Source: Naegleria gruberi
Lineage: Eukaryota
DNA length: 64,000 nucleotides
Reading direction: 5' to 3' (one strand)
Assembly: GCA_000004985.1 (NCBI GenBank)
Contig: GG738864.1
The notes under the pieces were generated by a model that saw nothing but the letters and a program-made list of their open reading frames with translations, had not been told where the DNA came from and searched no databases. Shown here piece after piece: positions 26,616 through 62,875 of the stretch. Each line of letters begins with the position of its first letter. Position 1 is the stretch's first letter. The position numbers and the translations under genes were made by a program.

Positions 26616-27071
26616 TATTGTAAGTTTCCAGAAAGCGTTTACGCAAAAAATTAACTTTTTTGATCGACTTGGTGCGACCTGACTTGATTTTGGATGACGT
26701 TAAAAACAGACGACTTTTGATTGATCCCCAAATCAACTAACACCAACCTGCAGTTGAAAGAAGAATTAACTCAATTTATTTTCTTTTGATATATTTGCAT
26801 AATTTGGTGTCAATTCTTCTTACTTTAACCTTTATTTCTCTCCAAGTTCTTTAGAAGTCTATTTGATAATAGTTCCACTGCAGTGCAAGCAATTAAAACA
26901 AGAATTGGATCGACCTTGAATCGATTGTAGTTGATTGCCGGTAGTCTGTGAATCGACTTTGAATCGATTTTGTTGCCAGTAAATTGACTTTTTTTTTCGA
27001 CTTAAAATGACTTTAGACGACTTGACTTGAAGTTAACTTTTGGCGTAAACGCTTTCTGGAAACTTACAATA
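26616..27071. mobile_element. MITE-like non-autonomous DNA transposon (~452 bp) with 27-29-bp perfect terminal inverted repeats and candidate TA target-site duplication (Tc1/mariner-Stowaway-like)
   Basis: The left end is TAttgtaagtttccagaaagcgtttacgc (26616-26644). The right end gcgtaaacgctttctggaaacttacaaTA (27043-27071) is its exact reverse complement. The TIR continues imperfectly inward to ~50 bp (aaaaaattaactt / aagttaactttt). The interior has no ORF and is rich in gacttga / gaatcgat subrepeats. Confidence 0.55.
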
Positions 27072-28336: not shown

Positions 28337-28622
28337 ATTATTGTTGTTGTTGTCTTGATGATGCTCGCAGAAATGTAATTAATCATCAACAATAATGTGT
28401 CTAGTGGTTGTTTTTTTTGCTGATGAATTTTAATTTGTTTTGTGAATAAATGTAACGTTCGAATTTTTAATTCAAAACGGTCTTGTTTGGCGCCAAAGAT
28501 TTTATTTACCGTTTTGGATCTCTATTTAATTTAACTGCTGTCAGCCTTCTCTTTGAAACAAAAGCAATGTTGATTGTTATCCATCTGCCAGGAACAGTCA
28601 TCCACAGATTACGAATTGTCTT

Positions 28623-28716
28623 GAGTATCAACAATAATACCCTGATCTTATCTAATATTCAAAACAATATTTGACATTTAAGATATTTCAAGATTAGGGT
28701 ATTATTGTTGATACTC
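28623..28716. repeat. intergenic hairpin: 26-bp inverted repeat (1 mismatch) separated by ~40 nt
   Basis: The arm gagtatcaacaataataccctgatct (28623-28648) pairs with agattagggtattattgttgatactc (28691-28716). It lies in the ~1-kb divergent region between genes starting at 28336(-) and 29361(+). Confidence 0.5.
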
Positions 28717-29360
28717 AAACCAACTCTGACAAAGTATTGATCATCACCACTACTATTCATGCCATTGGAGGAATCATTCTGATATTGAGAAGACTATTGA
28801 GGCTAACATTTGTTTATTTTTCAACAAGGGTTAACATTTTGTTCAAAACAATTACAAAATCATTATTCAAAAAGTAATTATTTTATGGATGGCCCATGGA
28901 AAAAAGCTCTAAATCGACTCGGCATATCCTCACTTCATTATAATTCTACAATGCTCAATATCCTCTCCAAAGGATCAACAAGGATCGTCGAAATGTAGGC
29001 TCAAACTCTGAAAAATATTGCGCATTCTCACTCCGTAAAAAATATCTCTTTTGGTTGGTGATTTTTTCAAACTCCATTGCAATACTACTTCTTGGAGTAT
29101 TAATATCTTTCATCATCACATCTTGTTTATATAATTATAAATAATTATTTTGAGAAAGGATTTTTTTGGAAGATACTATCCCTCTCAATCCGATAATTAG
29201 ATCATCATCATTGGGTGAATTCACTTTTCCAATTTTTTTAAATTGTTGTAGGAGTTTAATATTTCAAACTGTACTTTTTTGCTAGTTGTAAACTCCATCA
29301 ACTCCGTTTAATAGAGAAAGAACATCCTTTTTGTTAGAAGAAGATAAATAACAGTTCAAC

Positions 29361-36407: not shown

Positions 36408-36728
36408 ATATTGAATTGTATTCTGATATGCAGTTTCAACTTCGATATGATCAGAAAATTGGTAAGCAAAATTTTCATCATGTAGAACGTTCAATAAATA
36501 TAGAAGATTGAGCAACCGTTTCAAATTCTTCAACCAAACCTTACTGAACCAACAATCTAACGTTTCGGTCCAAGTGTATATTTTTATGTAAATACCAGAA
36601 ATTATAGACATAAATGACTATGGCCATCATCCCGTCCGATTTGAGAAGTTAAATATTGTCGAGTACTGAGGTTGGAGACAACTTGGGAACCTTTGCTAAT
36701 TGTAAAGTCAAAAAAAATACCCTCACTC

Positions 36729-38768
36729 ATGCCACAAGGGAATGCCATCATTTTTCTTGATTGTAAAATCTCATCCGACTTGCTATCGGGCATGTATCAA
36801 CACTCGAAACGAATACAACTCTACAAGCAGATAATTTTACAATTTTACATGTATAAAATGGATGTGCCACTCTCCGATACTTTGAAAAACGATCGTCAGT
36901 TTATTCTACAAGCACTCCAATACGATTTTATATTCCATAAATATGGAAAGAAATTTGTAGAAGAGTTTTTAAGGAAAGATGAAGAATTTATTATGGAAAT
37001 GATAAGAGTCAATCCAAGGATTATTAGATATTGTCCAAAAAGACCTAAATATTGTTTACAAGCTGTAAAGTATGATCCTCAAATGTTGTTGTATGCGCCA
37101 AAGGAGGTTAAAAGATCAGAATCAATTGTTTGGGAATTATTCAAGAGGGATGCTTCCTGTTTGAGATATGCAAGTCAACGATTGACAAGTGGACCATTTG
37201 CTTTTAAAGTTTTTGAGTACAATGAGAGTGCATTTAGAACATTTTGTAAACATCCATTTACAATTAATTCAATATCTAAAAGGGAGGATTTGTTAAAACT
37301 TGTGTCTATGGGCTCATACTATTCGAAAATTAGTCCTACATTGAGAGAGGATGAGGAGGTTCAATTGGCAGCTCTCAACCATGACGCATATGTTTGGCAA
37401 TTATTGAGAGATGATTTAAAAAATGATAGGAACTTGGCAATGGAATGGGTTAAGAAAAATAGAGAAATTCTTGGATATACGAAATTTATTCACGATTATG
37501 AATTTATGGTGGAGCTGATTGAGGAGAATACTATTTATTTTTGGGATTTCAAAGGAGAAATGAAAGAACAACTTTTCAGAAAGAACAAAAAACTCCTTAT
37601 GACTGCTTTGGAGGATTACAAAATATTGGACTATCATTGGATACCTATTATTTCTACAAGTTGGTATTCCCTTCCTTCATCAATAAGTCAAGATAGAGAA
37701 GTAATCATGTTGTTTTTGAGAAAATTATGTAAAAATGAAAATGGATATAGATACTTTACATTTACCGTTTCTGGAGGAAATATTACAATCAATTGTGACC
37801 AATATTTTAAGGTATGCCTTGAAAATTTCCAAACTGACAGAGATTTCTTCCATTTAAATTTATCTAAAATTGGGTTGAATAGAGTATACGCATATGCTGA
37901 TCAATCAATGAAGAGAGATCCCAAATTCATTGCTTTTGTATTCAATTCATATCCTAACAATAATATCACTTTTGAATATGACAAGAATATAGTGAGAGAA
38001 CTTATTCCGCTTCTCAAGACAAATCCGTCTCAATTATTCACGGATATCAGATCATTGATTTCGGATGACAAGGAGCTATTACTGTTATGCATCAAGAATA
38101 TTAGCCCTTATTGCTTTAATTATGCATCTGAACACTTGAAAACTAATGTGGATTTTATAGAGGAGTGCATGCGAGTTAATAATTCAGTCATAGCAACTGT
38201 TTCCTTGAAATTGGTTAGAATGAATAAGGAATTGGCAATCCTAGCATTCAAAAAGGCAGTAGAAATAGATATAATACTCCCTATTTTAAAAGAATATTTG
38301 GCTGATGATGAATTATTTCAACTGCTATTCCAACCTTATTCAAATATTACTAGCGATCGATTGCTGAAAATATGTGAGGAATTAAGAATTTCTGATAATT
38401 TGAAAAATGATTATGAGCTTGCAAGAAGGATAATGAATAGATCTATCAAGTTCAGTATCATATTCAAAGACGCACCATTCATCAAAGAATTGATAATTGA
38501 AAAACTCATTCAGGGTCCAATCTGCTATTTAGAATTGAACGATTGTTTTAAATTTGATTGGGATTTGTTTAGTACTGTATACAGAAAGGCAGATTACATG
38601 GGTAGAACTAATTTGGTGTATAATAATCAGCACCTCAAGAAAAAAGATGTTTTAGTTAAATTATTAGGGAAAGGAGTGTATATTAGTGATAATGATAATG
38701 GTTTTATTGATAAGAAAATTACAAATGTGGATTTCATGTTGGAAAACTGTTCTCAAATGTTGATTTGA
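36729..38768 (+). CDS. repeat protein (~680 aa) built from tandem ~25-50-aa helical repeats resembling DUF4116
   Basis: Repeats of the form xFILQALQYDxxxLxYAPKEVKRDxExV recur throughout, for example LQAVKYDPQMLLYAPKEVKRSESIVWELFKRDASCLRYASQRL. The track ORF begins at a TTG (36672). The first in-frame ATG is at 36729. Confidence 0.45.
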   Translation: MPQGNAIIFLDCKISSDLLSGMYQHSKRIQLYKQIILQFYMYKMDVPLSDTLKNDRQFILQALQYDFIFHKYGKKFVEEFLRKDEEFIMEMIRVNPRIIRYCPKRPKYCLQAVKYDPQMLLYAPKEVKRSESIVWELFKRDASCLRYASQRLTSGPFAFKVFEYNESAFRTFCKHPFTINSISKREDLLKLVSMGSYYSKISPTLREDEEVQLAALNHDAYVWQLLRDDLKNDRNLAMEWVKKNREILGYTKFIHDYEFMVELIEENTIYFWDFKGEMKEQLFRKNKKLLMTALEDYKILDYHWIPIISTSWYSLPSSISQDREVIMLFLRKLCKNENGYRYFTFTVSGGNITINCDQYFKVCLENFQTDRDFFHLNLSKIGLNRVYAYADQSMKRDPKFIAFVFNSYPNNNITFEYDKNIVRELIPLLKTNPSQLFTDIRSLISDDKELLLLCIKNISPYCFNYASEHLKTNVDFIEECMRVNNSVIATVSLKLVRMNKELAILAFKKAVEIDIILPILKEYLADDELFQLLFQPYSNITSDRLLKICEELRISDNLKNDYELARRIMNRSIKFSIIFKDAPFIKELIIEKLIQGPICYLELNDCFKFDWDLFSTVYRKADYMGRTNLVYNNQHLKKKDVLVKLLGKGVYISDNDNGFIDKKITNVDFMLENCSQMLI

Positions 38769-41657: not shown

Positions 41658-42308
41658 ATGCAAAATTACACCACTAAGCAACAATTCACAGCTGAAAAGT
41701 CCATTGATGAAGCAATATCTTGTATTTCAATCAGTCAACCTTCAATGTCATCTGTTACAAAAAAGAACAGAAGAGGTGGAAGAGGATTGAGAAGAAATAG
41801 GACAATTCATCATGGACAGTCATCATTCACTGATCGTTTCTCATTCAAAACTCGTGCTAATCAAGTTTTATTAAGAAATGATCAAATGATTGCTGACAAT
41901 CAAACAAGACCGTCATGGGGAAGTTTGTTCACAACTTCTCAAAACATGTCAAATGCAGAGAAAGAATCTGCAGAAAGAATTGGATTGAATGATAATTTTA
42001 TCATGTCACCAATTTCTGGTTGCTTTTTGAAGTGGTTTGCTGGTGATGATTTGACAATTGACAGGCAAGCAATTTCAATTGTTAATAAGGTGTACATTCA
42101 AGAGGGTGTTTCAGTTAGTGTTGAAACAATGAAAGAATTGGAGGGAAAGGCTAATGTGGAAATAGTTGACTTTCGTAACATTTCGTTTATGCAATTATTA
42201 AACGAAACTAGAGATAAAAATTGTGTGTTGAGTATTCTTCCAATTTCAAACACCACTAACATGGAAACAGTCATGTTTCTCATTAGTGAATTCAAATTTA
42301 AAATGTGA
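41658..42308 (+). CDS. hypothetical protein, 216 aa
   Basis: ATG-initiated ORF. No family recognised. Confidence 0.35.
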   Translation: MQNYTTKQQFTAEKSIDEAISCISISQPSMSSVTKKNRRGGRGLRRNRTIHHGQSSFTDRFSFKTRANQVLLRNDQMIADNQTRPSWGSLFTTSQNMSNAEKESAERIGLNDNFIMSPISGCFLKWFAGDDLTIDRQAISIVNKVYIQEGVSVSVETMKELEGKANVEIVDFRNISFMQLLNETRDKNCVLSILPISNTTNMETVMFLISEFKFKM

Positions 42309-42374: not shown

Positions 42375-42790
42375 AAAACTTTACCACTGGTACAATCAAT
42401 TGACATATCTATTTAAATATTCTAATTGAATCATCTTGTTGATCTGTATATCAACAATTCTTAATGTCATAATCTGAAAGAAATATTTTCCCTCCTGTTC
42501 TATCAATTGCCATTCCATACAAAAATCTTTCAATTTTCCAAATACAATCAGCACTTGATCCTAATCTCATTAAATTCTTCACTCTATATTTGAAAGTATA
42601 CTTATTCTCTCCAAAATAAATAGCATCATTTTATTGATCATCAAAATTCTCTTCAATTAACAAACCAGGCACTCCTCCTTCGACAAGAAAGGCTCCTAAA
42701 TATTCATGAGTAATCAAATCAAAAAATTTCACTTCAGAATTTGAAACATCAGAGATGCACAAACAATTGTGTGAGAAATATTGGCATGGT
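42375..42790 (-). pseudogene. degraded partial copy (3' half plus 3' flank) of the soluble NHL-propeller gene at 61841..62800, lying immediately downstream of kinase gene A's stop codon
   Basis: The reverse complement of 42375-42790 aligns with 62020-62820 at about 90% identity in the retained blocks, for example tttctcacacaattgtttgtgcatctctgat...gatttgattactcatgaatatttaggag.... It carries a CAA>TAA stop in gatcaaTaaaatgatgc. Two internal deletions of ~275 and ~100 bp are each bounded by short direct repeats (ggcaatt, aattgttg). Similarity continues past the parental TAG into the 3' flank. Confidence 0.6.
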
Positions 42791-42795
42791 TCTTT

Positions 42796-45700
42796 TCAAT
42801 AGTCAAATAAATCATTCAAAGTTTCAAGTATTGACATGATTGGTGGTCGTTTCTCTTCCTCAGCTTTCCAACACTCCTGAATTAATCCACATAGACTGTA
42901 TACTTTGCTAGCTTCCAATGAATCAAAAGTTTGTGGATTATTTCTCTTACACCACTGAAAACATTCTTCCTTAGAATGGAAAGGGATGAGAGGTCTGAGA
43001 TTATCTTGACAAATCTTACTGGTGAGGAAGGGAGTACTTGGGAATTTTCTTTCCTTATCAAGATTTAATCGTTGTAAAGTTCTTGGTTCAGTGTAAGTGT
43101 AGGCATCTTGACATTCGAATAATAATTGCCACATGATAATGCCAAATGCATAAACATCACATGATTTGGCATCTTGAATAGTTCCATTAATCAATTGAGG
43201 GCTCATGAAATTATGTGTACCAATCAAGTGTGTCATTATTGAATTATTCTTATCTGACATTTTGCGTGACAATCCAAAATCACATAATTTACAAATTCCA
43301 TCTTTGGTTAATAAAACATTTCCTGGTTTGAGATCTCTGTGGACAATTGGAGTTGGTAAAGTGTGTAAATACTCAATACCTCTTGCAATACCTAAAAACA
43401 TTTGAATTTTACGATCAAATGTCATTATGACAGTTCCCTTTTCTAACTCATGAATTACATCAACTAGAGATTTGTCCAATCGTTCCATTACTATAAATCC
43501 CTTGTTAGGCATTATTGAAACTCCATAGAAAGATGTAATATTAGGATGTCTCAATTTGACCAGTATTTTGACCTCATTGATAAATTCCTGATCTTGAATG
43601 TCAGAATCCATTTCGAATACTTTTACAGCAACACTAATTCCTTTCCACATACTTTCTATAACCATTCCTTGTCCTCCTTTTCCAAGTCTCTTTCTATTTC
43701 TCAAGTCCAAATCACCAATAGGAATGATAAAATCATTTTGTGGACTAGATTCTGGATCTTGCAGCTCTATTGGTTTGTAATCATCACCAAATAACAATTG
43801 CTTTGATAGAGAATCTGCATCTCCAATAATTTTCTTCTGTTTTCCATATTTTCTGCACAGGAATACCAATAAAGACACCAATAATATCAAAAGTGCTAAA
43901 AAGACAATACTCAAAACGATTGGAACAATTGCTGAAATAACGGAATCATTCTTTTCACAATAATCTCCAGAAGATCCACTTAAACATTTGCAATCATCCA
44001 CGGAATTACACATTCCACGACCACTACATACGTTTGGATCATTCTGTGCTAAGCCATAACACATGGTAAATTGGCATTGGTTTCCTGTATATCTATTCTT
44101 ACTGCATGTACACTTATCAATATCGGTGCAATTTCCTCGACTTTTGGCACCTCCACACGCATCCGGGTTGACCTTTCCATAGCAGGTTGCAGTTTCACAA
44201 TTACTTCCCAAATATTGATCACTATTGCATTTGCAAGAGTTGGATGATTGGCATGTTCCTCTTCCATTACACACGTCCTTATTTGCATTGGTCAATCCAA
44301 AACACACAGGTATATCACATTCCTTTCCAGTAAATCCAGATTGACATTCACATTGATTATATCCTATGCATTTTCCTTTTCCACAAGCATCCCCCTCTGT
44401 TTTTCCATAACAAACAGGCAAACACAATGTGAAATTATCATTCAAAATGTAGCCATTAATTTCACAGTGTGGTGTCAATGTATAAATTGCTGTTCGAGTG
44501 CAATAAATGATTGAGCCAGTAAGTGGGTCGAATTCAATATCTAAGGCATTCTCATTCAGATTTGAAATAGTTTCCACTTCTCTTTCTGATTTGATTAAAC
44601 TAATTTTCCTTCCATATTTGTGAAGGACAATTATTTTGTTATCTAAATTGAATACAGGTGAAAATGGACCCTCCAATCCTGATTCAGCAATTGTTGTAAT
44701 TATTCCATTCTTATTAATTCTTCTAATTCTGTCATTTAACATGTCGCAAAATACTAGATCTCCGAAATCATTAATCAATAGTCCAGTAGGTTTGTTGAGA
44801 GAGGATTTCGTTGCTTGGATGTAGTTCGATCCTCTACCAACATCTCCGTCTCCTGCAAGAGTTGTCAGCATGCCATTTCTGTCAAGTTTTCTAATATTTG
44901 AAAATAAGTCATCTGTGAAATAAACAACATTGAAACTATCCACAACAACAGAATATGGATAAGCAATGCTCAATCTTTCAGTAATATTATCTCTTCCGTA
45001 TCCACCTAAAAATCATTTGATTAGAATCTTTGAGATTCTATGAAAATTTCAACATACCAGAAATGAATGTAATTTCTTTAGTTCTAATTGAATCTTCACC
45101 AGTCATGTTCAATCCTAAAACTCGGTGATTTCTCGAATCTAGAAAATAAAGCATGTCGCCATCCACAAATAAACCTTTAGGGCTGTTCAATTTAATCTTT
45201 GCTGGACTAGTGTCTCTGTTAAATCCAGAAACTCCAACTCCAATTGCTGTTGAAATAAAATGTGAATTCACATTAATTAGTCTAATACGATTATTGAAAG
45301 TATCTGAAACGAAAATTAATTCATTTCCATCGTGATCTGTATAATATTCAGCAAATGTTGGATAGAGAAAGCTGATAAAATTATTAGAAAGACTATGAAA
45401 GAAGCACATGTACTCACCTTGCACTCAGGGAGGAGCCACCATCACCTCCATAACCATCGCTTCTTCCTGCTATTGTTTGAGTATTGGAATTGGCATTGCC
45501 ATTTTGTAAAATTATCTTTCTAATTCTATGATTTGCTAATATAATTAGAATAGTTTGGAAAATTTGAAAACTTACCAGAATCTACAATATACAAATGGGT
45601 AATCTTCTCTGGTTTTTCAACACATAATAAACCATACGGTTGATTGAATGCTGATGCAAGAGGAGCCCCATCAATATATCCTTGATATCCAACACCTGCT

Positions 45701-47577
45701 AATAAGTATCCTCTAGTTTCTTTTAAAGGAAATTCCAAAATACGATGATTGAATGTATCTGAAACATATAGAGTATCTGAATTTGCAGAATATTTAATGT
45801 CAGTAGGAGCATTCATTTGGATTGCACGTCTTGGCTTACCACTATATGGAATAGCTGACCCATCATTGGGAATGGTGAATGTTGGAATTCCAGCAAATGT
45901 ATCAATTATTCCAGTAAGTAACGAAACGTTTCTGATCAATCCATTTCTTGAATCCACAATATACATGACATTTTTCACTATGCATAATCCTTTAGGAGTG
46001 GATAACTGAGCATTAATAGCTAATCCTCCATCACCACTAAATCCAGATTGTCCAGTACCGGCTACAACATAGATTTTCCCCTCTTTGGTAATTTTTCTCA
46101 CCATATTATTTCCTGATTCAGTGAAATAAATATTTCCATCATCTGCTTTGTAAATCGATAAAGGGGTGTCCAGAACTGCATTACTGGCATCCATTCCATC
46201 TTTCTGCTTATTTTTTTTCGAAGAATCAATTAGTACTGTTTTAACTTTCTTCTTGATAACAGCTAAGGATGTGACAGAGGTTTCTGGATCAATAGATGTC
46301 ACGTAAACGCTCTCATCTTCTCCTAAATCGAGCTCTGTATAAATTACACTTTGAGATGAGGAAATTTCAGTACTACTACCCTCCAAAGAGGATACTCTTC
46401 CTGTTGTGAGCGAAATATTTCGAATAATATTACCATCAGTCACGTACAAATTCCTCAATAGTGGAGATAAGGTAATTTTCTCCATTCCCGAAAATCCATA
46501 TTTTAACATGGGTATTCCGTCTAAACTCAATCCATCCTCTGAGAAGATTTTCATCAGATTTCCATTAATAATTGTTAAAATTGCATCGTGATAGGCAATG
46601 AATACATTACTTCCAATATACATATCAGTTACTTCTCCTAGTTCAACTTTGAGGGCAGGTCCATAACTGTACTCTGTTGAATCCTTTCCAGAACCAACAA
46701 TTGCCTTACTTGTTCCATTTCTATTAATTTCGAATATTCTCTGGTAGCAAAAGGCAAATAATTGATCTTGATAAATAGTGGAGGTTCTTAAAATTGTTTT
46801 TGAATTGATAAATTCTTCTTGGTTATTACCAGCTATGGTTACATTCATTGAAAATAGATATTTTGGTTGATTGCCAATTTCATCAAGAATAATGTAGAGA
46901 GAATCATCCTTCAACACGACGAATATTTCATTAGAATCCAAATTAATCGACATGGTAGCTATTGTCATATTAAAAGCAGCAACAGGTTCCGTCCTCAACT
47001 CATTCGTTGTAACATTAAAAGCCATAATCCTATTCGAATCGGCAAAATACAGCATTCCTCTATTAATGACTGCTCTGAGTGGTGGATTGGTCAATTGAGT
47101 TGGTTTCACAAGTGTAGTTGCCTTCCCTGACTTGGTATCAAATTTCCTAATGGCAGGTATTCCTTTATCAATGAAATACACTTGATCATAGGCAATTCCA
47201 TCATCATGAATACTTTTCGAAATGAAAATCGATGAAGGATTTGAAATTAAAGTACCATTCCAACCACCCTGTTTGCTATTAAATGGTTTTCCATACTCTC
47301 CAATCACAGTTTCCACATCACCACTCGACATGTTCACTCGCATGATGCTATTTTTCGAATGTGAAAAGTAGAAACAATTTGGATGAGAAACGGATGGAAA
47401 TACAGAGAGAATATTTCCGAGTTGAATATCTTGGGATTGAGCCAAGATGTTTTCTGCATAATTTACAGGAAGGGACAATTGGGATTGAACGTGATGATGA
47501 TGATAGAAACAAAGAAGAAGAAATGAAACTAAACAAAACGTGAATGATGTGAATAGTTGCATTTTTTTAAATATCAT
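42796..47577 (-). CDS. receptor kinase A: signal peptide - ~25-30 NHL beta-propeller repeats - 4-5 EGF-like Cys modules - TM - Ser/Thr (TKL-like) kinase; ~1547 aa, 4 exons (47577..45576, 45535..45418, 45371..45058, 45005..42796)
   Basis: Introns are 40, 46 and 52 nt with GTAAGT, GTGAGT and GTATGT donors. A 46-nt intron was chosen over a 25-nt alternative because it conserves the NHL spacing GDGGxxxxAxFxxPxF. The NHL consensus recurs, for example GFSGDGGLAINAQLSTPKGL...YIVDSRNGLIRNV. The EGF-like region is CNGRGTCQSSNSCKCNSDQYLGSNCETATCYG. The TM helix is IVPIVLSIVFLALLILLVSLLVFLC. Kinase motifs are LGKGGQGMV, VAVKV, HRDLKPGNVLL and DFGLS, with APE replaced by SPQ. Confidence 0.8.
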
Positions 47578-48421: not shown

Positions 48422-48493
48422 TCCCGTGTAGTCCAATGGCTAGGATACCTGGCTTTCACCCAGGAGGTCCGGGTTCAATTCCCGGCATGGGAG
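48422..48493 (+). tRNA. tRNA-Glu (anticodon UUC), 72 nt, no intron
   Basis: The cloverleaf folds by hand. The acceptor TCCCGTG pairs with CATGGGA (one G-U). The D stem is GTCC/GGAT. The anticodon stem CCTGG/CCAGG carries the loop CT-TTC-AC. The variable loop is 4 nt. The T stem CCGGG/CCCGG has the loop TTCAATT. The A box is TAGTCCAATGG and the B box GGTTCAATTCC. Overall it resembles eukaryotic tRNA-Glu-TTC. Confidence 0.9.
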
Positions 48494-51159: not shown

Positions 51160-54100
51160 TTATTTGAAATAATTGAGGGAAAGAAGTTGAGATGCATTTG
51201 GTCTTTGTTTTGAATCTTTTTCTAACATTTGCAATACAATTTCAATTAAATCATTCGAATATTCATTATCATTGGATTGTTTCATTTGTTTTGTTAGAAT
51301 GTTGATTGCGTTTTGTGATTGAATTCCCATCAACAAGTTGCTGATTGATGTTTCCTTGTCTTTTGTCATGATTTGATAAATTGAAACACCCAAAGAGAAA
51401 ATATCAGTATTAAAGGAATAGGAACTGCCAAGGGCAATTTCTGGACTCATATCTGAATGGTTTAGTTTCGTCTAAATAAAAAAATAAACTTACATAAAGG
51501 AGTTCCAGCATAGGATTGACCTTTTGATTCTTGAAACTTTTTAGCCAATCCAAAATCTGCCAAAACAATTTCAATTTTTTCACTTTCCAACTTTTTTATA
51601 AATATATTTGTTGGCTTAATATCTCTATTTTTCCAAAATTGATTTTACAAATTCCTAATATATACTTACCTATGAATAATATGCATCTCCTCATGAACAA
51701 GTTTCAATGCACTCAACATTTGTTTCAATATTTGCTTCAATAATTTCTCACTCACTACTTCGTCGTGTTTCAATAAATTTGTCAAATCTCCACATTCATA
51801 ATAATCCATGTCAATAATCAATAAATTGTCGTTGGTGATGAAATAATCATTCACCTTGATGATATTTGGATGATTGATATGGCTCAATTGGGATGCCTCT
51901 TTCATGATGGTATTCAAATCAGTGAATGATTCAAATCTGATAAGTTTGATTGCTTTCAGTTTGTTTCCATGTTTAATATCTGAAACTTTGAAAACACTTC
52001 CAAATGCTCCTTGTCCAATTCTTACAATATTCGAATATCTTGAGAAGGGATTTTCTTCAGAACTACTGGACGAGCCATTTGATGAAGAAATAATCATTGA
52101 GCTGGTGGAAGGAAATTCATTATCCGAAAGTTCAATATTGTTAGTATTGACCTGAACAATTTCCAATTTCTTATTCTTTCTTTTTCTTGAATTGAAGCAC
52201 ATTACCATAATGACTACTATTACAATTATTGTAAACAAAATTAATAAAGATCCAACAATAGGAATAACAATTGCAACTATTAATACTGATGAGTTGGTCG
52301 ATAATTGTCTTGCAATCTTAGTTATTTCACAATACTTTCCTTCAAAATCATCTTTACATTGACACGTGTCAAAATCCGAACAAATTCCATTTCCATTGCA
52401 AACACTTGAATTAGTTGCCAAAGTTCCATTACAATTCAATAGCATATCACACGTATTATTCCAAGTATTGAAAACATAATTTTCCTCACATTGTGGAATA
52501 ATCTTTCGAATATAAGTTGTTGCATCAATGAAGAAAATTTCACCTGAACTTTCGTCAAATTCAACTTGTTTTGTGAAGGAAGTAAATATTGTATCGGAAC
52601 CCTTTCCATCTCCATTGAATGCAGGAGAGGATGACCTCTTTCCAGCCAAGTCAATCAATAATCCACTCTTTTTCTCGTACATTCGAATAAGATTAGGAGC
52701 GCCTTTACTAGTTACTGTTCCATCTAACAATATAATATCACCATTCTTCTTGACAAAGATAGCAGAGGGGTTATCAATCGAAGATTCTAGTGCTGGTAAT
52801 CTGTCTCCTGAATATCCTTGAGAGAAAGTTCCCACCAAAGTTCTCAAATAAAATTGATTATTCGAAATCTTTTCAATTCTTCTAATGGTTTCCATTGTAC
52901 TTAAATAAAGATTTCCATCAATATAAAAAAGTGAAGTAATTAATCCAGGATACGTTTGAAAATTAACAACTATTCCGTCAGTAGATATTGGATTTGAGGA
53001 ATTGAACGTAAATTCCAGATTTAGTAGTTGAGTTTCCAAGCTGTATCTGTAAATATGCAAGATGTCTGATATTACTAAATCACCATTTGATTCATCTATT
53101 GTAAACCCTGACATTGCATTTGGTGGACAAGGTGAAAGTGTTCCCTTGACATTTGGTACAAAAGCTCCACAAGCACTTCCAATCACTCTTTCATAATTCA
53201 TAGTTTCTGGATCAAGTCTGATAATTCTACATGTTTCCTTAATGTATATCTTGTTATCAAATTTGGAAAGTTTACCAAAAGTTTTTAAACCAAGTATTGA
53301 CATGGTGATTGTCAAATAAGGAAAATCAAAAACTGGAATAGAAGGCAATAAAAACCAGCTAAGTGAAATTGACTTGCCTGTTTTTTCGTCAAACTTTTTT
53401 AAAACTCGATAATTATCAATGAAATAGTTTATCTTTTTAGCCGAATCTCTCATCAACAAAACAGGACTCAATGTTTTAGCTAATGGATTGAGTCCAGCTA
53501 TGGTTTTGATTGTTCCATTTGAAATTTCACTGATATAATTGGAGCAGGAGATGTAAATTCTTGAATCTTCTCTGTTCACTTGAATTGCATAACTTTGTAT
53601 TTGATTGTAATCTAATTTCAGTTTACAAAAATTACTTACGTTGCTGAAGTTTCAATAGGAATGTCATCACCATTGAATCCAGATGTATAAATATTAGTAT
53701 TTGAAATGTTAACCGCATCAAGTCCAACAATTTTCTTTAATGAAAGTGAATCCCATGAATATTCATAAACTTGTGAATAAATATAGAAATAGAAAATTCT
53801 GCCAAATGTAGTAAATCCATTAAATGATATATCTGATATTTTTCTAATACTAGTTGTATAATTTCCATTCTTATAATCAATATATTCATAAATACTGTTA
53901 CCAGAATAATATAACAGAGAATTAGTTCCATTTATGGTTAAATCTGGAATAACACGTATCAAACCTAACCCAGGGATATCAATTTTCAGGATATACAATA
54001 GATTGGATTTGTGAAAAACTGAAAAGGTTTGAACGTAAGTTTGATAATAAATTGTTGAATTCTCATAGGAATCCCCTGTTGCAGTAATGGCACTCGAATA

Positions 54101-56212: not shown

Positions 56213-59200
56213 TTAATTTTTGAGTGAATTTTTCAATAGAGAAAGAATTTCATTAAAGTGGTGAATAGAAGGTCTTTGAGAAGGATTAGTTTCCCATCCC
56301 TTCTTAATTAAATCAAGTAATTGGTAGATTACTGTACTTTCTTGGAGTGAATAGGCCTTTTTCATTTCACACCAAGATTGACAATCTTCCAAAGTTTCGA
56401 ATGGAATGAGTGGACGATGTCCAGATGCAATCTTTGGAAGCAGTTGGCTTAATAAATTTTGATATTGAACTGGTTGTTCAAGATTCAACTTGTTTAATAT
56501 CAATGGATTCGTATAATAATAAGGATCCATAATTTCAAATAGAATTTGCCACATGATTATTGACAAACTATAAATGTCAACAGCAGTTAACAATTGCCTT
56601 TCAATTTCACCAAATGATTCAGGACTATTAATCAAAATCATTAGAAAGATAATAAATAGTAATACTCTACCTCATATAATAAAAAGTTCCAATTTGATTT
56701 GTAATTTGCGTGTTGTTTTGCTTATTCAAGAGTCTGGACAAACCAAAATCACACAACTTGCTCACTCCATGAACATCTTGCAAAATATTGGCAGGTTTCA
56801 AATCTCTGTGCACGATCGTTGGTTTCAGATTGTGTAAATATTCGATTCCTTTGCAGATATCAAGCATAATATCCATCTTTTGACTCAATGACAATTTCAT
56901 TCTATTAGATTGGAGTTCAGCAATAATATTTTCAAGACTTCTCTCCATTTTCTCCATTACAATATATCTCTTGGTTGGAGTAGAAGAAACTCCAAAGAAG
57001 GAAATAATATTTGGATGTCTCAATCTGGAAAGAACTGTTGCTTCAGACCTAAAATCATTTTCATCAATATTCATATTATTCAAATCGAAAACCTTAATAG
57101 CTACTTCAGTTCCAATCCATTGAGATTGATAAACTGATCCATAGCCACCAGAACCAAGTTTCTTCATTTTACCCAAATCCAACTTGTTAATAGAAATGAA
57201 GAATGAATCTGCTTCATCCTTCTTCTTTCCATCATTGTCAATTTCCAGTTCAAGCATGTTATCAGTAACAAATTGATCAGTTTTAATGATCTTTCTCTGA
57301 ACATAATACTTTCTGAATAGACCAATAATAATGAAAAGTGAACCACCAATGCAAAAGACAAGAACTGCAACACCTATTAAAGCACCAATAAGAGCCCACA
57401 GTTCATCAGAATGTTGACATTGTTCACCTGAATAACCAAATTGACAGGTGCATTGATTTGGAAGTGAACAACTGCCTCTTCCATTACAAACGTCTGCCTC
57501 TTTTTCATTCCTTCCAAAACATGTCATTAATTCACATTCTAAACCAGTATATCCAGTATTACAAGAACATTGATTCTTGTCAAGGCAACTTCCTCTTACT
57601 GAACCACCACAAGCCCCGTCAAGAATCTTTCTGAAACAAATTGGCGTTTGACACATTGAGGAAGTATATCCTTCTTTACAAATGCAAGTATTTGGAGCTG
57701 TGCAGTTACCTCTTCCATTTGTGCAAACACTGGAACTATTAGAAGCTTCTCCATAACAAACTGGTATTTCACATTCGAAACCTGTATATCGAGACGAGTC
57801 ATAACATTGACACAAATCTGGTGAAAGACATTCTCCATTATTATTGCAAACATTTCCACTCAACAGTTTGATCTTTCCATAACAAATTGGAAGGCAAGTA
57901 TCATTCTTTGAATAGACATGACCATTCTCACAGAAAGCTTCCAATTTTCTAACATTATTCAATGAAGAATCGATAAAGAATAATACATTTCCTTCATTGT
58001 TAATTGTCATGGAGGTGGGTGAAATACTGAAAGGTTTTGATTTGGTTTGAGATGGAGCAGATCCATCCCCCGCAATTACATCAAATGGATGACTAGCAAT
58101 GGTTGAAATCTTTCTAATAAAATTGTTTTTGCTATCTGAAATAATTGTTTGTCCCTTATAAGAAACAACTGAGGAAGGTGAATTTAAGGAACTTGTTTTT
58201 GGATCAGAGGTTTGAGAGAAGCCAGTGAACCCATTACCTGCTACAGTTTCCAATAATCCTTTCTTGTTAATTTTTCTCACCTTACTAATTCCAGATTCGA
58301 CAAAGATTAATTCACCCTCTTCATTGACATACAATCCTTTAGGTGCTGCAATATCTGATGAAATGGCCAATCTTCCATCCTCGGAGATTCCAAACAATCC
58401 AGTTCCTGCAATAGTTGAAATTACTCCATTTGTGGAAATCTTTCTAATTCTATTCTGAGCTGTTTCACTAACGTACATTTCACCACTCGAGGAGAAGGCA
58501 ACATACGAAGCCTCAACTTGTGAATAAAGAGCCAAGTTATTGTCGCCAATTCCTCCAGCAAATTTCTTTACCCACTTTCCTTCAATTTGACTTTCCAATA
58601 TTCTATTGTTACCTTTTCAAATTTCTTAATAAAATAATTCTAAATACTTTTAACTTACCTGAATCAGCAATAAATAAAATAGATTTGGAATGGTCAAAGA
58701 AGGTACATTGTGGATTATTCAATTTGACATTAGAACCTGTAATGTTTCCTTCGAAATAATTATAACCTGCAAAACCATTACCAACAACTGAATAAGTGGA
58801 CGAAAGGACAGCAAATCTAATTCTATGAGATTGGGAATCAGTAATGTGGATATCAGTTAAAGCAGATCCAACTGAGTTTACACTCGAAACACAAGTTGGT
58901 GTATTGTAAATTGCATTTGGTAAATTAAAATCATCTGTGTAACCCTTAGCTCCACTACCACTATGCGTAGTTACAGTTACTGGATCATTAAAAAGTGGTT
59001 GTAGATCAACATATCTAATACGATTATTTCCAGAGTCTGCAAAATAGATAATCCAATCTGAATTGAGAGAGAATCCCATAGGTGTGTCCAAATGAGTGGA
59101 GAGAGCTGGCCCATCACCATTGAATCCCTTTACACCACTTCCAGCAATGGTTTGAATAATACCAGTACTAAGAGTAATTTGTCTTAATCTATTATTGAAA

Positions 59201-61022
59201 GTATCAGAAAAAAACAATTCATGATAATAATTGACTTGGAGATAGGTTGGAGAATTCAATTGAGCAGTAAGGGCATTAATATTGTCTCCATTGTAACCTT
59301 GTATTCCATTTCCTGCAATGGTTTGGATGATTCCAGATGTTATGTTGACAGCTCTAATTCTATGATTATTGGTATCGGCAACATAGAGCACATTATTATC
59401 CAAATAGATTCCAGTTGGAGAATTAAGCTTGGCCAATGTTGCTAAACCACCATCACCATCAAATCCAGAAGTTCCACATCCAGCAACACCAATTACCACA
59501 CCACTAGTTCTGTGAACCTTAATAATTCTATGATTTCCAGAATCAGAAATGTATACATAACTAGTTGTTGCAAAAATTCCCTTTGGAGAGTTTAGAACTA
59601 GTTGATCTTTGTGTTGCTGTAAAAGCCTGGATGCTGTTATTGGACCTGCAAACATTGTTGAAATGCTTCCATTATATTTGTGAATGAAACCCTTTGATGA
59701 GACAACATATAGATCACTGTTATTGGTTGAGACTGAAACTGGATTGAGAGCAAAAGGTTGATAGGTATCAATGAAATTCAACTCCTTCTCTGGGGCTATC
59801 ATTTCAAGTTTGTTGTTTGCTGAGATTTTTCGTACAGCTCCATAGTCAGAAACGTAAAGGTTTCCACTTTGCTGATCCAGAACTATTCCAGTTGGAGAAT
59901 GAAGTGTTGTCTCACTAGAATTGTATCCATCAATAAATGGACCAATAACAGCTCCATCATAATTAATAAACAAGATCAATGATATTGTTTCATCAATCAT
60001 TGAAATTTTTCTAATTGTTTTCAGTCCAAAATCGCTAACGTACATGAAACCATTATGAATACCAAAATACTGATTTATGGCAATGAATTCAGCATCACTT
60101 GCCTTTCCACCATCTCCAAAAGTGGTTGCTTCCAAACTAGCCTGTTTACCATTTCCAACAAATCTTGAAATATTTCCATTTCTCAAATCCATTTTCCTTA
60201 TTGTCGAAGAAAGCTCTTTAGTATCCACGTATAGCAAGTAATTATCCACTCTCAACAGTCCTGGATGAGTAAAATCTAAATTTTCTACCAACAGCTCTTC
60301 ACCATTATCAATGGTCCATCTACAAAGTGATTTCACATCAATATCTTTAAATTTGAAATAATAAACGACACCATCATCATCCACATAGACATCCAAAACA
60401 TTTGATGATGTTGAAATGTAGGTGCTGACAATACCATTCTCTACTTTTCTAATTGCATCATTATACCCATCTGCAATGTACATAATTCCATCTTTATCAA
60501 TGAACATTGAATAGATCCTAGTGTGTATGAAATGTGTTAGATAAAGAACAAATAATTGAACACATACCCATCAAAGAGAGCTTCTCTTGCATCTCCTCCA
60601 TCACCACTATATCCTGATTCATCTTTGATTCCGACAATTACTGTATAATTAGCCTCAACTTTTTCATTGATAATACTTATGGAAGTGGAATCGGAACAAT
60701 AAACAACACCACTTTTAACATTCACGTATAATGAACAAATGAATGGCTTCTTGAGGAGTGTCATCTTTTTTGATACTGCATCTATTTTAGCAATGAAACT
60801 ATCATCCACGGTATCACATTCAAAATAAATGTGTCCTTCATTAGTAACATGGACAGCTCCTAAACCACTGAATACATTCTGTTTGTGAGGTTTGGTTACA
60901 TCACTCAGTGAGTATTTTGGTGTTGTTTGACCAAAGGATTCCCTTAGTAGGAATTGTGTGAAAAAGCAACAAGCTAACAACACTAAGGCAATGACGGATT
61001 GGAAAGGAAGGTGTTGCTTCAT
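56213..61022 (-). CDS. receptor kinase C (paralog of A/B): signal peptide - NHL propeller repeats - EGF-like modules - TM - Ser/Thr kinase; ~1555 aa, 4 exons (61022..60568, 60517..58659, 58612..56671, 56624..56213)
   Basis: The signal peptide is MKQHLPFQSVIALVLLACCFF. Introns are 50, 46 and 46 nt with GTATGT, GTAAGT and GTAGAG donors. The exon junctions ...EALFDG|IYSMFIDKDG and ...IADSG|GNNRILES fall inside NHL repeats, and ...GTFYYM|SPESFG inside the kinase. NHL consensus examples are YVADTNNHRIRAV, FFSDTFNNRLRQI and ADSGNNRIRYV. EGF-like modules include CNNNGECLSPDLCQCYDSSRYTGFECEIPVCYG. The TM helix is LIGALIGVAVLVFCIGGSLFIIIGLF. Kinase motifs are LGSGGYGSVY, VAIKV, HRDLKPANIL, DFGLS and YMSPE. 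Confidence 0.8.
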
Positions 61023-61774
61023 ATTTTTTCTTCTTGTTCAACAAGTCTAATGAATGTTTGGTCAGTGCTAATAATTGGTTTTGCCTTTTCCAAGATTGGA
61101 GAATATATATGGAAATACTGTATTTTCCTTTACTGATCCTCTATTTTATATACAGGTAAAGATTATTATTAAGCAAAGAAATGTTCATAATATTGAATCA
61201 TTTTCAATACAACCCTTCAACTCTGTTTTGTCTGATTCTTTATTCACTATTACTACTCACTATATCACAATGAAATATAATGACGATGCATAACATTTCT
61301 AAGGAAAGTTTAAAAAATTTAGGAAACAAAGTGGCTTCACTTCTTCTCATCATTGTTGCTACCCTCATCAAACCTCAAAAGAGAGGAGGAATATTTCATG
61401 ATGAATAGAGGTACTCTAAGAGAATTAAGCTCTGAAACATTTATCAACTCACAAATGTCATCTCTTTAGTAAAACTTAAATTCGGAGCACAACAATTAAT
61501 CATAATAAATTAATACTCGGAGAAGATACACCAACAACAGATGAACTTAATTAACACTAGTGGAAGTTGGATGTAAACATTAGTATTACGCTAATTTCCT
61601 ATTCAACAATGGGACAATAATTGTGTGTTCCTTTAAGCATTCCTTCTTTTGAAATGTACACTGTCGAAAGTTGATCAAGTATTATCCTCCTACTTGTTGT
61701 AAAGACACAGTTCCTTAAATGAATTTAAGAGAATTTCCTCCTGTGACTCCAAATGGAGTTGACTTAAGTGGCAA

Positions 61775-61830
61775 ATGAAGCAACCTTTCACACAACTTGC
61801 TCACTCCATCGTAAATCAAAGTTTTTCTTC
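61775..61830 (-). pseudogene. short antisense footprint of a kinase catalytic-loop/DFG region (remnant of a further paralog)
   Basis: A 22-nt exact match tcacacaacttgctcactccat occurs with kinase C at ~56745-56766 on the plus strand. The minus-strand translation ...LIYDGVSKLCERLLH matches kinase C's DVHGVSKLCDFGLSRLL. It overlaps the first 18 codons of track ORF 61775..62800. Confidence 0.4.
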
Positions 61831-61840
61831 AACTTGGAAC

Positions 61841-62800
61841 ATGTCAAAAATTACGAAAAAAAATGCAAGACGATTGTCTCTCATTAATCACAATCCTTCC
61901 CTACAGCTGAACGATGCCTTGTTCGAAAAATTTAAAATTCATATGAGAAGTTATCGGAATTGTGTGCCATTTTCAATGAAGTTTGAAGAGATGAATAATA
62001 TCAAGTCGATCGAACATAAATTGCACTGTCCCTCCCAAGCCAAGATTTCTCACTCACACAATTGTTTGTGCATCTCTGATAATTTAGATTCTGAACTGAA
62101 ATTTTTTGATTTGATTACTCATGAATATTTAGGAGGCTTTCTTGTTGAAGGAGTGACTGGTTTGTTAATTGAAGAGAATTTTGATGATCAACAAAATGAT
62201 GCTATTTATTTTGGAAAGAATAAGTATACTTTCAAATATAGAGTGAAGGATTTAATGAGATTAGGATCAAGTGCTGATTGTATTTGGAAAATTGAAAGAA
62301 ATCATATGTATGGAATGGCAATTAGAACAATTGGAAATCAGAAACAATTATTCAGATATAGTGCTTCCCAAGGAGTTATGGATATTATAGATACTGTGAA
62401 TGGAAAGGTCATTAAAGAGTTGAAACTTGAAAAACTCGACAGAGTAATGGATATTATTTTCATCAATCCAAAAAGAATGCTTGTTGCTGAACTTTTTCAT
62501 AATGCATGTTTTATTTATGATGAAATGAACGAAAATGAATGGAAATTGATACAAACAATTGAAAAAGCAGAGAATATTTATTTTAGTCAACCATTAGGAT
62601 TGGCAATTGACAGAACAGGAGGGAAAATATTTCTTTCAGATTATGACATTAAGAGAATTGTTGTATTTAATGAGAGTTTAGATTTGATTGATTGTCATTA
62701 TCCAGAATCTCTGAATCCATTTCGTCTCGATTTTGATGAAACAACAGGATTACTCTATATTACTGATCAACAAGATGATTCCATTAGAATATTTAAATAG
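61841..62800 (+). CDS. soluble NHL-repeat beta-propeller protein (~320 aa) with a Cys/His-rich N-terminal segment (possibly B-box-like); no signal peptide or TM
   Basis: About 5-6 NHL-like blades are present, for example LGLAIDRTGGKIFLSDYDIKRIVVFNES and TGLLYITDQQDDSIRIFK. The start is moved from 61775 to the in-frame ATG at 61841 because the first codons overlap the kinase footprint. The parent of the degraded copy is at 42375-42790. Confidence 0.6.
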   Translation: MSKITKKNARRLSLINHNPSLQLNDALFEKFKIHMRSYRNCVPFSMKFEEMNNIKSIEHKLHCPSQAKISHSHNCLCISDNLDSELKFFDLITHEYLGGFLVEGVTGLLIEENFDDQQNDAIYFGKNKYTFKYRVKDLMRLGSSADCIWKIERNHMYGMAIRTIGNQKQLFRYSASQGVMDIIDTVNGKVIKELKLEKLDRVMDIIFINPKRMLVAELFHNACFIYDEMNENEWKLIQTIEKAENIYFSQPLGLAIDRTGGKIFLSDYDIKRIVVFNESLDLIDCHYPESLNPFRLDFDETTGLLYITDQQDDSIRIFK

Positions 62801-62875
62801 ATATGTCAATTTATTGTACCACTGGTAAAGTATCCACAGTTCCTTAAATGAAATTAAGAGAAGATTGAAATTTTA

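What the first reader, a model, noticed from the sequence alone, without database searches (positions are those of the whole stretch)
42375..42790. Degraded duplicate of the soluble NHL gene sits directly 3' of kinase A, with repeat-bounded deletions
About 15 bp after kinase A's stop codon, the minus strand carries a ~415-bp remnant of the 3' half and 3' flank of the NHL gene at 61841-62800. Retained blocks are about 90% identical. It has an in-frame CAA>TAA stop and two deletions (~275 and ~100 bp) whose breakpoints sit at short direct repeats in the parent (ggcaatt, aattgttg). Together with the antisense kinase footprint at 61775-61830, this shows segmental duplication and decay of kinase+NHL modules across the locus.
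Basis: seen in the sequence. Interest (0 to 1): 0.6.

Follow-up and report, generated by a model that had tools for sequence, protein, structure and literature searches.

The report
Decayed copy of a small NHL gene
A 412-bp dead fragment of a small NHL-propeller gene lies just after a receptor kinase gene in the amoeba Naegleria gruberi; it is an ordinary pseudogene left by a local duplication of that one gene, not evidence that kinase and NHL genes were copied together.

Summary
Window 42378-42789 (minus strand) matches the intact NHL gene at 61775/61841-62800 in three collinear blocks (E 1e-113; 5.7% substitutions). It starts 6 nt after kinase A's stop codon. The CAA>TAA stop is confirmed, and so are two large deletions (285 and 93 bp). 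The 285-bp deletion lies exactly between two TGGCAATT copies. The claimed repeat at the second deletion does not exist.

The source is Naegleria gruberi. The gene encodes a six-bladed NHL-type propeller of a family found across the genus Naegleria. The remnant is the sister copy of the window's intact gene (6:0:0 informative sites).

The 'kinase+NHL module' interpretation fails. Kinases A and B are only 35% identical in protein, homology stops at the edges of the NHL unit, and the gene arrangements at the two loci differ. The 'antisense kinase footprint' is real, but it is an exact 22-nt patch with abrupt edges copied from kinase B. It lies near a 28-bp repeat that brackets the intact gene. 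These junction marks are on the intact copy, so that copy may be the relocated one and the remnant the abandoned original. This is an ordinary pseudogene of low interest.

The parts
42378..42789 (-). NHL pseudogene remnant (whole): 5'-truncated copy covering codon 87 to the stop of the intact gene plus 31 nt of its 3' flank, with two large internal deletions
   Evidence: blastn gives three collinear blocks, best E 1e-113; tblastn with P0001 gives 79% identity over 103 aa
42496..42789 (-). Block 1, matches 62035-62329 (propeller blades 1-2 and the first strand of blade 3)
   Evidence: 90.4% over 301 columns; blades mapped on the AF2 model
42631..42633 (-). In-frame TAA stop (CAA in the intact gene at 62192-62194 and Q in P0002/P0173)
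42505..42512 (-). Single retained TGGCAATT at the junction of the 285-bp deletion
   Evidence: the intact gene has two copies, at 62316 and 62601
42452..42516 (-). Block 2, matches 62597-62663
   Evidence: 94% identity
42451..42453 (-). Second in-frame stop (TGA), created by a 2-nt GA loss next to the 93-bp deletion junction
42378..42448 (-). Block 3, matches 62761-62831 (last 12 codons, stop codon and 31 nt of 3' flank)
   Evidence: 94.4% identity; homology beyond it is at null level
42790..42795 (-). 6-nt spacer (AAAGAA) between kinase A's stop codon and the remnant
42796..44973 (-). Kinase A: last large ORF of a receptor kinase gene (EGF repeats, TM helix, complete kinase domain). It is intact and not truncated by the remnant
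   Evidence: Pfam Pkinase 6e-43; catalytic motifs, TM helix and C-terminus at the same position as in kinase B
41658..42308 (+). Convergent neighbour ORF (216 aa, no Pfam hit). The remnant fills 412 of the 487 bp between the two stop codons
61841..62800 (+). Intact small NHL-propeller gene (public model P0001 starts at 61775), the sister copy of the remnant
   Evidence: 100% match to a N. gruberi predicted protein; sister relationship 6:0:0; six-bladed propeller model with pLDDT 83.6, closest to NHL domains
62316..62323 (+). Left TGGCAATT copy bounding the segment lost in deletion 1
62601..62608 (+). Right TGGCAATT copy bounding the segment lost in deletion 1
62664..62756 (+). Segment of the intact gene absent from the remnant (deletion 2, 93 bp), with no bounding repeat
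61706..61733 (+). Left copy of the 28-bp direct repeat CACAGTTCCTTAAATGAA[T/A]TTAAGAGAA that brackets the intact gene
   Evidence: 27/28 identical; 0 of 100 shuffles give 2 matches
62835..62862 (+). Right copy of the 28-bp repeat. It begins 3 nt after the end of the remnant/intact-gene homology and lies 13 nt beyond the stop codon of the convergent gene 62876-63964
61788..61809 (+). Exact 22-nt patch identical to kinase B coding sequence (antisense to the kinase), inside the annotated N-terminal extension of P0001
   Evidence: longest same-orientation exact repeat in the window; no flanking similarity
56749..56770 (+). Source of the 22-nt patch: kinase B (minus strand) codons for HGVSKLCD, kinase subdomain VII

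Best explanation
The segment is a dead, decaying paralog (pseudogene fragment) of a small six-bladed NHL-propeller gene of Naegleria gruberi.

Origin. One local, gene-sized duplication copied only the NHL gene, with at most about 30 nt of 3' flank, in inverted orientation across 19 kb. It produced two sister copies. One copy (61841-62800) stayed open. The other (42378-42789) sits in the small 3'-3' spacer behind kinase A. It lost its first 86 codons and its start codon. It then lost two propeller blades through a 285-bp deletion between TGGCAATT repeats that occupy equivalent positions in two blades. It also lost a further 93 bp, and it gained two stop codons and several small slippage indels. 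It cannot encode a propeller, and it does nothing to kinase A, whose ORF ends normally.

Relation to the kinases. They were not co-duplicated. The adjacency reflects where a harmless insertion or decay was tolerated in a gene-dense genome.

Inferred, not shown. The duplication was DNA-level break repair or template switching. The intact copy's flanks carry a 28-bp bracketing repeat and a 22-nt patch copied from kinase B 5 kb away. This mildly favours the intact copy being the relocated one and the remnant being the abandoned original.
For: - Homology and its limits.
- Disabling lesions: TAA, TGA, indels of -4/-3/-2/-1, deletions of 285 and 93 bp, and no start codon.
- Neutral-like substitution pattern: 13 differences in 110 codons, 7/3/3 by codon position, 9 non-synonymous to 3 synonymous.
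- Sister relationship: (P0001, remnant)|(P0002, P0173) at 6 sites, with 0 and 0 for the alternatives.
- No public protein contains the remnant's translation.
- The gene is real and conserved: the family is present in N. gruberi, N. lovaniensis and N. fowleri; 7 of 10 members hit Pfam NHL; the AF2 model (pLDDT 83.6) best superposes on TRIM2, Thin and Brat NHL domains.
- Kinase A/B divergence is 35% amino-acid identity, and kinase A is intact.
- Junction marks on the intact copy. Their identity (27/28 and 22/22) is compatible with the 5.7% divergence of the copies.
- Local inverted duplication also occurs in this family in N. lovaniensis.
Against: - Direction of the duplication is not resolved. 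No outgroup locus could be fetched: N. gruberi DNA outside the window is not in the searchable collections, and there are no metagenomic relatives.
- The remnant's own junctions carry no target-site duplication, filler or poly(A), so they say nothing about mechanism.
- The 28-bp repeat could be a functional motif and not a repair scar.
- The intact gene shows at least as many private amino-acid changes as the pseudogene (6 against 4). Purifying selection on it is therefore inferred only from its open frame and near-absence of indels.
- Expression of the remnant was not tested.
Confidence: 0.85

Rival explanations
1. One reading: whole kinase+NHL modules were duplicated segmentally across the locus and are decaying. 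The remnant behind kinase A and the kinase footprint beside the intact NHL gene are the two halves of that history.
For: An NHL remnant does abut kinase A. A kinase-derived sequence does lie beside the intact NHL gene. In N. lovaniensis a kinase gene sits next to two small NHL genes.
Against: Kinases A and B are 35% identical in protein, while the NHL copies differ by 5.7% in DNA. Homology ends at the NHL unit's edges. Orientation and spacing differ between the two loci. The footprint is an exact 22-mer with abrupt edges. There are no remnants behind kinases B or C. The N. lovaniensis kinase is unrelated to kinases A and B (E 0.006) and that locus is not syntenic. The N. fowleri family member has no kinase nearby.
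Confidence: 0.04
2. The remnant is a 5'-truncated retrocopy. An mRNA of the NHL gene was reverse-transcribed and inserted behind kinase A, ending at the transcript's 3' end.
For: The copy is 5'-truncated and gene-sized. Its 3' boundary lies 31 nt after the stop codon, a plausible polyadenylation site, and coincides within 3 nt with the end of the unit at the intact locus.
Against: There is no poly(A) tract and no target-site duplication at the remnant. The source gene has no intron, so intron loss cannot be scored. Naegleria genomes are repeat-poor: 5.1% in N. gruberi, and only DNA transposons (1.25%) and LTR elements (0.68%) are quantified for N. lovaniensis (PMC6125883). No non-LTR machinery was identified here.
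Confidence: 0.12
3. The remnant is the daughter: a partial DNA copy of the intact gene inserted behind kinase A. This keeps the first reader's direction but drops the module idea.
For: Any insertion into an 80-bp 3'-3' spacer would land close to a stop codon. The remnant lacks the 5' third of the gene, as expected for an incomplete copy.
Against: The only rearrangement marks are at the intact copy: the 28-bp bracketing repeat, whose edge coincides with the end of homology, and the 22-nt filler. The intact copy's ancestral MQDDC start codon is out of frame, so its 5' end was remodelled.
Confidence: 0.4
4. The similarity reflects a transposable element or an assembly or cloning artefact and not gene sequence.
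For: The copies are dispersed, and one deletion lies between short repeats, which can also arise during cloning.
Against: The unit encodes a conserved NHL propeller with orthologs in three Naegleria species and has no transposase, LTR or TIR features. The 5.7% substitution divergence and multiple independent lesions cannot come from misassembly. No other repeat family is present in the window.
Confidence: 0.02

Closest known systems
Duplicated (unprocessed) pseudogene fragments produced by birth-and-death evolution of small gene families
   Same: A paralog of an intact nearby gene. It is truncated, carries nonsense and frameshift lesions, shows a neutral-like substitution pattern, and has a deletion between short direct repeats. 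The same subfamily has another truncated member, P0174 (118 aa).
   Different: The duplicated unit is only gene-sized, with no flanking DNA, and is inverted 19 kb away. The junction marks (28-bp bracketing repeat, 22-nt templated patch) lie on the intact copy and not on the decayed one.
NHL-repeat six-bladed beta-propellers (Pfam PF01436; TRIM2, TRIM71, Brat and Thin NHL domains)
   Same: The fold matches (TM 0.70-0.76 normalised to the target, rmsd 3.3-3.8 A). The blade motif matches.
   Different: This is a stand-alone protein of about 320 aa with a short N-terminal helix and no TRIM, RING or B-box module. Sequence identity to solved NHL domains is 12-14%. P0001 itself scores 19.3 bits, just under the Pfam cut-off of 20.
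Templated insertions and microhomology at break-repair junctions (polymerase-theta end joining, MMBIR/FoSTeS); comparison from general knowledge
   Same: Short exact patches copied from nearby sequence in direct orientation sit at a rearrangement boundary. One deletion lies between 8-bp repeats.
   Different: The 5-kb distance to the patch's source is long for typical theta-mediated fillers. No enzyme or pathway evidence exists for Naegleria here. The 28-bp repeat could equally be a target-site duplication or a functional motif.
Processed pseudogenes (retrocopies)
   Same: 5' truncation, and a 3' end close to the likely transcript end.
   Different: No poly(A) tract and no target-site duplication. 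Intron loss cannot be tested.

Membership tests
Pseudogene (non-processed, duplicated) | Clear homology to a functional paralog | tested here: met
   E 1e-113 in DNA; 79% amino-acid identity over 103 residues
Pseudogene (non-processed, duplicated) | Disabling lesions (stops, frameshifts, truncation) | tested here: met
   TAA and TGA stops; indels of -4, -2 and -1; loss of the first 86 codons and the start codon; loss of more than 2 of 6 blades
Pseudogene (non-processed, duplicated) | Neutral substitution pattern | tested here: inconclusive
   Differences by codon position 7/3/3, and 9 non-synonymous to 3 synonymous, which looks neutral. There are only 13 differences, and the intact copy contributes about half of them
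Pseudogene (non-processed, duplicated) | Not expressed as protein | not testable with these tools
   No transcript or proteome data. No public protein model contains the remnant
Processed pseudogene / retrocopy | Poly(A) tract at the 3' end | tested here: not met
   The remnant ends ...GGTAAAGT|TTTCAGTTTC
Processed pseudogene / retrocopy | Target-site duplication flanking the insert | tested here: not met
   The two flanks share no exact word of 6 nt or more
Processed pseudogene / retrocopy | Loss of the source gene's introns | not testable with these tools
   The intact gene is a single uninterrupted ORF
Co-duplicated kinase+NHL segmental module | Kinase and NHL parts show similar divergence between the two loci | tested here: not met
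   Kinases 35% identical in protein; NHL copies 5.7% divergent in DNA
Co-duplicated kinase+NHL segmental module | Homology continues across the kinase/NHL boundary | tested here: not met
   Extension into kinase A's tail is alignment drift and scores below the shuffle mean
Co-duplicated kinase+NHL segmental module | Same relative order and orientation at both loci | tested here: not met
   Tandem and abutting at kinase A; opposite strand and 1.3 kb from the kinase B gene at the other locus
NHL-repeat beta-propeller | NHL repeat profile match | tested here: met
   7 of 10 family members match, best E 2e-16. P0001 itself scores 19.3 bits against a cut-off of 20
NHL-repeat beta-propeller | Six-bladed propeller fold | tested here: met
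   AF2 pLDDT 83.6, pTM 0.80. Best superpositions are the TRIM2, Thin and Brat NHL domains
Microhomology / repeat-mediated deletion | Direct repeat at both breakpoints with one copy retained | tested here: met
   Deletion 1: TGGCAATT at 62316 and 62601, one copy in the remnant. Deletion 2 fails this test
Transposable element | Terminal repeats, transposition genes, many copies | tested here: not met
   Only the NHL domain is present. The window shows a single-digit number of copies, and no TIR or LTR was found

The most novel reading that the evidence does not exclude
The two loci record a gene relocation caught mid-way. The NHL gene originally sat in tandem behind kinase A. It was copied in inverted orientation 19 kb away by break repair or template switching. 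That event left a 28-bp duplication bracketing the new copy and a 22-nt filler templated from kinase B 5 kb away. It also forced a new start codon, because the ancestral MQDDC ATG is now out of frame. The original copy then decayed. If so, the public model's 22-residue N-terminal extension is partly read from the antisense strand of kinase-derived sequence.
Probability: 0.35. Interest if true: 0.3.

Novelty: new member of a known kind. Interest (0 to 1): 0.15.

Why it matters
It matters little beyond annotation. The work identifies an unannotated pseudogene and shows that a lineage-restricted NHL-propeller family in Naegleria turns over by local duplication and decay. It also corrects the idea that kinases and NHL genes travel as modules. 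The junction marks on the intact copy are a small, clean example of repair-scar anatomy in a heterolobosean genome. They also suggest that the public gene model's start at 61775 is probably too far upstream.

Tried and rejected
1. Extension of homology into kinase A's C-terminal codons. tblastn with P0002 reached 42849, but only 6 scattered identities support it and the DNA score is below the shuffle mean.
2. Extension of homology past 62831 into the 28-bp repeat. The best identity is 11/24 against a null mean of 9.9.
3. A larger duplicated flank, 61734-61800 against the tail of gene 62876-63964. It looked significant by shuffling. Against genomic windows it scores 20 while unrelated windows reach 19, and part of the match is the kinase B 22-mer. 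Dropped.
4. Frame preservation of the remnant and its being in frame with kinase A. This dissolved once the indels were separated into -4, -2 and -1. Deletion 1 is in frame because it joins equivalent positions of two blades.
5. Exact look-ups of N. gruberi proteins for genomic DNA: none on record.
6. Metagenome scans by protein pattern and by an exact 28-mer: nothing.
7. First AF2 run with 2 sequences: pLDDT 35, discarded.
8. Synteny between the N. lovaniensis kinase-NHL-NHL locus and this window: none.
9. Rfam and tRNA scans: nothing in or near the remnant.
10. Literature searches for Naegleria retroelements or pseudogenes gave only general genome statistics.

Full report
OBSERVATION. The reverse complement of 42378-42789 aligns to the small NHL gene region in three collinear blocks. 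42789-42496 matches 62035-62329 (90.4% over 301 columns). 42516-42452 matches 62597-62663 (94%). 42448-42378 matches 62761-62831 (94.4%). The best E-value is 1e-113. Counting substitutions only, the copies differ at 23 of 405 positions, or 5.7%. In a self-comparison of the window this is the only long nucleotide-level repeat, apart from a 75-bp kinase-kinase match and two small inverted repeats elsewhere. The remnant lies on the same strand as kinase A (42796-44973, minus) and begins 6 nt after its TGA stop. It fills 412 of the 487 bp between the stop codons of kinase A and the convergent ORF 41658-42308.

LESIONS. The CAA>TAA change is in frame: parent codon 62192, remnant 42631-42633. Glutamine at that site is shared by the paralogs P0002 and P0173. 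A second stop (TGA, 42451-42453) arises beside the second deletion. Deletion 1 is exactly 285 bp and lies between two exact TGGCAATT copies at 62316 and 62601, one of which is retained in the remnant. These two repeats occupy the same position (G-[ML]-A-I) in the first strand of two propeller blades. The deletion therefore removes two whole blades and is in frame for structural reasons. Deletion 2 is 93 bp (62664-62756) and has no repeat at its right breakpoint. Smaller indels are present: -4 (loss of one TCAC from a TCACTCAC tandem), -3, -2 (GA in GAGA) and -1. The first 86 codons and the start codon are missing. Among 110 comparable codons there are 13 differences, distributed 7/3/3 over codon positions, with 9 non-synonymous and 3 synonymous. 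That pattern looks neutral.

WHAT THE GENE IS. The window comes from Naegleria gruberi. The ORF 61775-62797 is 100% identical to a predicted N. gruberi protein on a 442-kb contig (P0001). Window GC of 34% agrees with the published 35% for a gene-dense genome with 5.1% repeats (PMC6125883).

A profile search of 1.8 billion representatives found many full-length relatives of 270-400 aa. Cluster look-ups name several of them:
- N. gruberi NAEGRDRAFT_76933 (P0002), 64796 (P0173) and 68909 (P0174, only 118 aa)
- N. gruberi 52433, 47131 and 58148
- orthologs or paralogs in N. lovaniensis and N. fowleri

Seven of ten family members hit Pfam NHL. P0001 itself scores 19.3 bits against a cut-off of 20. 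An AlphaFold model built from five family members is confident (pLDDT 83.6, pTM 0.80). It superposes best on the six-bladed NHL domains of TRIM2, Thin, Brat and TRIM71, with TM 0.70-0.76 normalised to the target and rmsd 3.3-3.8 A. The gene therefore encodes a stand-alone NHL-type propeller of a family found across the genus Naegleria. It is not a transposable element.

RELATIONSHIP OF THE COPIES. Over the 116 residues retained by the remnant, 6 informative sites group (P0001, remnant) against (P0002, P0173). No site supports either alternative grouping. The remnant and the window's intact gene are therefore sister copies from a local, inverted duplication 19 kb apart. Private changes number 6 plus one codon deletion in P0001, and 4 plus the lesions above in the remnant. 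The intact gene has thus changed in protein sequence at least as fast as the pseudogene. Selection on it is inferred only from its uninterrupted 319-341 codons and from a single in-frame indel, against six indels and two stops in one third of that length in the remnant.

THE MODULE HYPOTHESIS. Kinase A is an intact receptor-type kinase. It has EGF repeats, a TM helix at residues 352-372, and the G-loop, VAVK, HRDLKPGN and DFG motifs. It ends at the same position relative to the kinase domain as kinase B (58598-56673 plus 56596-56234, with a 76-bp intron). Kinases A and B are about 35% identical in protein, so their duplication is far older than that of the NHL copies. Homology between the two NHL loci stops at the unit's edges. 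The apparent tblastn extension into kinase A's tail is drift, and similarity past 62831 is at null level. The arrangements also differ: tandem and abutting at kinase A, but opposite strand and about 1.3 kb from the kinase B gene at the other locus, with ORF 60537-61022 in between. No P0001-like sequence lies downstream of kinases B or C. The NHL-bearing ORFs in that region belong to the receptor kinases' own ectodomains and are only remotely similar to P0001.

In N. lovaniensis, two small NHL genes in divergent orientation do lie next to a kinase gene. That kinase is unrelated to kinases A and B (E 0.006) and nothing else is syntenic. The N. fowleri member has no kinase nearby. The co-duplicated module idea is therefore not supported.

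THE KINASE FOOTPRINT AND THE FLANKS OF THE INTACT GENE. 61788-61809 is identical over 22 nt to 56749-56770, the kinase B codons for HGVSKLCD, in the same DNA orientation. Similarity vanishes immediately on both sides. A decayed paralog would show diffuse similarity, not an exact core with sharp edges. The intact gene is also bracketed by a 28-bp direct repeat (61706-61733 and 62835-62862, 27/28 identical). These two features are the only same-orientation exact repeats of 18 nt or more in the 64-kb window, and both fall within 130 bp upstream of the gene. The right repeat begins 3 nt after the point where remnant/intact-gene homology ends. Identities of 22/22 and 27/28 are compatible with the 5.7% divergence of the two gene copies, with probabilities of 0.27 and 0.52. 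The intact copy's ancestral start (ATG 61863, MQDDC as in P0002 and P0173) is out of frame and closes after 15 codons. The gene now relies on ATG 61841, or on 61775 as in the public model, whose extension reads through the kinase-derived patch. The remnant's own junctions carry no target-site duplication, filler or poly(A).

MECHANISM.
- Shown: a gene-sized local inverted duplication of the NHL unit alone. One copy then decayed by a repeat-mediated two-blade deletion, a second deletion, slippage indels and nonsense mutations.
- Inferred: the duplication was a DNA-level break-repair or template-switch event, because short templated patches sit at the boundary of the intact copy.
- Direction: the intact copy may be the relocated one, because the end of homology coincides with the edge of the bracketing repeat. 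I put about 0.35-0.45 on that direction, a similar weight on the reverse, and about 0.12 on retroposition, which lacks a poly(A) tract and a target-site duplication. None of these changes the main verdict.

VERDICT. This is an ordinary, previously unannotated pseudogene fragment. Interest is low.

Noticed in passing
window 42796-47577 (minus): The kinase A ORF (725 aa, with all catalytic motifs, EGF repeats and a TM helix) has no self-hit among 5.8 billion public proteins; the best hit is 30-40% identical. This apparently intact receptor kinase gene, probably with upstream NHL exons at 45038-45424 and 45526-47577, seems to be missing from the N. gruberi annotation.
   Followed up: partly
window 61775-61865: The public model P0001 starts at ATG 61775. 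The ancestral MQDDC start (ATG 61863) is out of frame, and the 22-residue extension upstream of ATG 61841 reads through a 22-nt patch copied from the antisense strand of kinase B. The true start is probably 61841.
   Followed up: partly
window 56597-56672 versus 43200-43260: Kinase B has a 76-bp intron inside its kinase domain, after ...GTFYYM. Kinase A is uninterrupted at the equivalent position. Kinase C (51666-53579) is split right after its HR(D) motif. Intron positions therefore differ among these paralogous receptor kinases.
   Followed up: no
outside the window: NAEGRDRAFT_68909 (P0174): A 118-aa annotated protein in the same 90% cluster as P0002 and P0173 covers only blades 3-5. It is probably another truncated copy of the same NHL subfamily on a different scaffold.
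   Followed up: no
L001 4916-9014 (N. lovaniensis PYSW02000016.1): A divergent protein kinase gene is followed after a 74-bp spacer by two small NHL genes in divergent orientation. The family duplicates locally in another species, but the kinase is unrelated to kinases A and B.
   Followed up: yes
window 26616-26657 / 27030-27071 and 28613-28726: A 42-bp inverted repeat pair (95% identical, about 370 bp apart) and a 114-bp imperfect palindrome (74%).
   Followed up: no
window 48422-48493 (+): tRNA-Glu(TTC), the only Rfam or ARAGORN hit in the window.
   Followed up: no
window 36672-38768 (+): A 698-aa ORF with four DUF4116 repeats (Pfam E 6e-37).
   Followed up: no
window 61775-62800 versus 42378-42789: Since the split, the intact NHL gene has accumulated at least as many private amino-acid replacements as its pseudogene sister (6 against 4 in 116 residues). 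Three of them cluster in 'DNLDSEL'. This hints at relaxed or positive selection on the propeller's first blade.
   Followed up: partly
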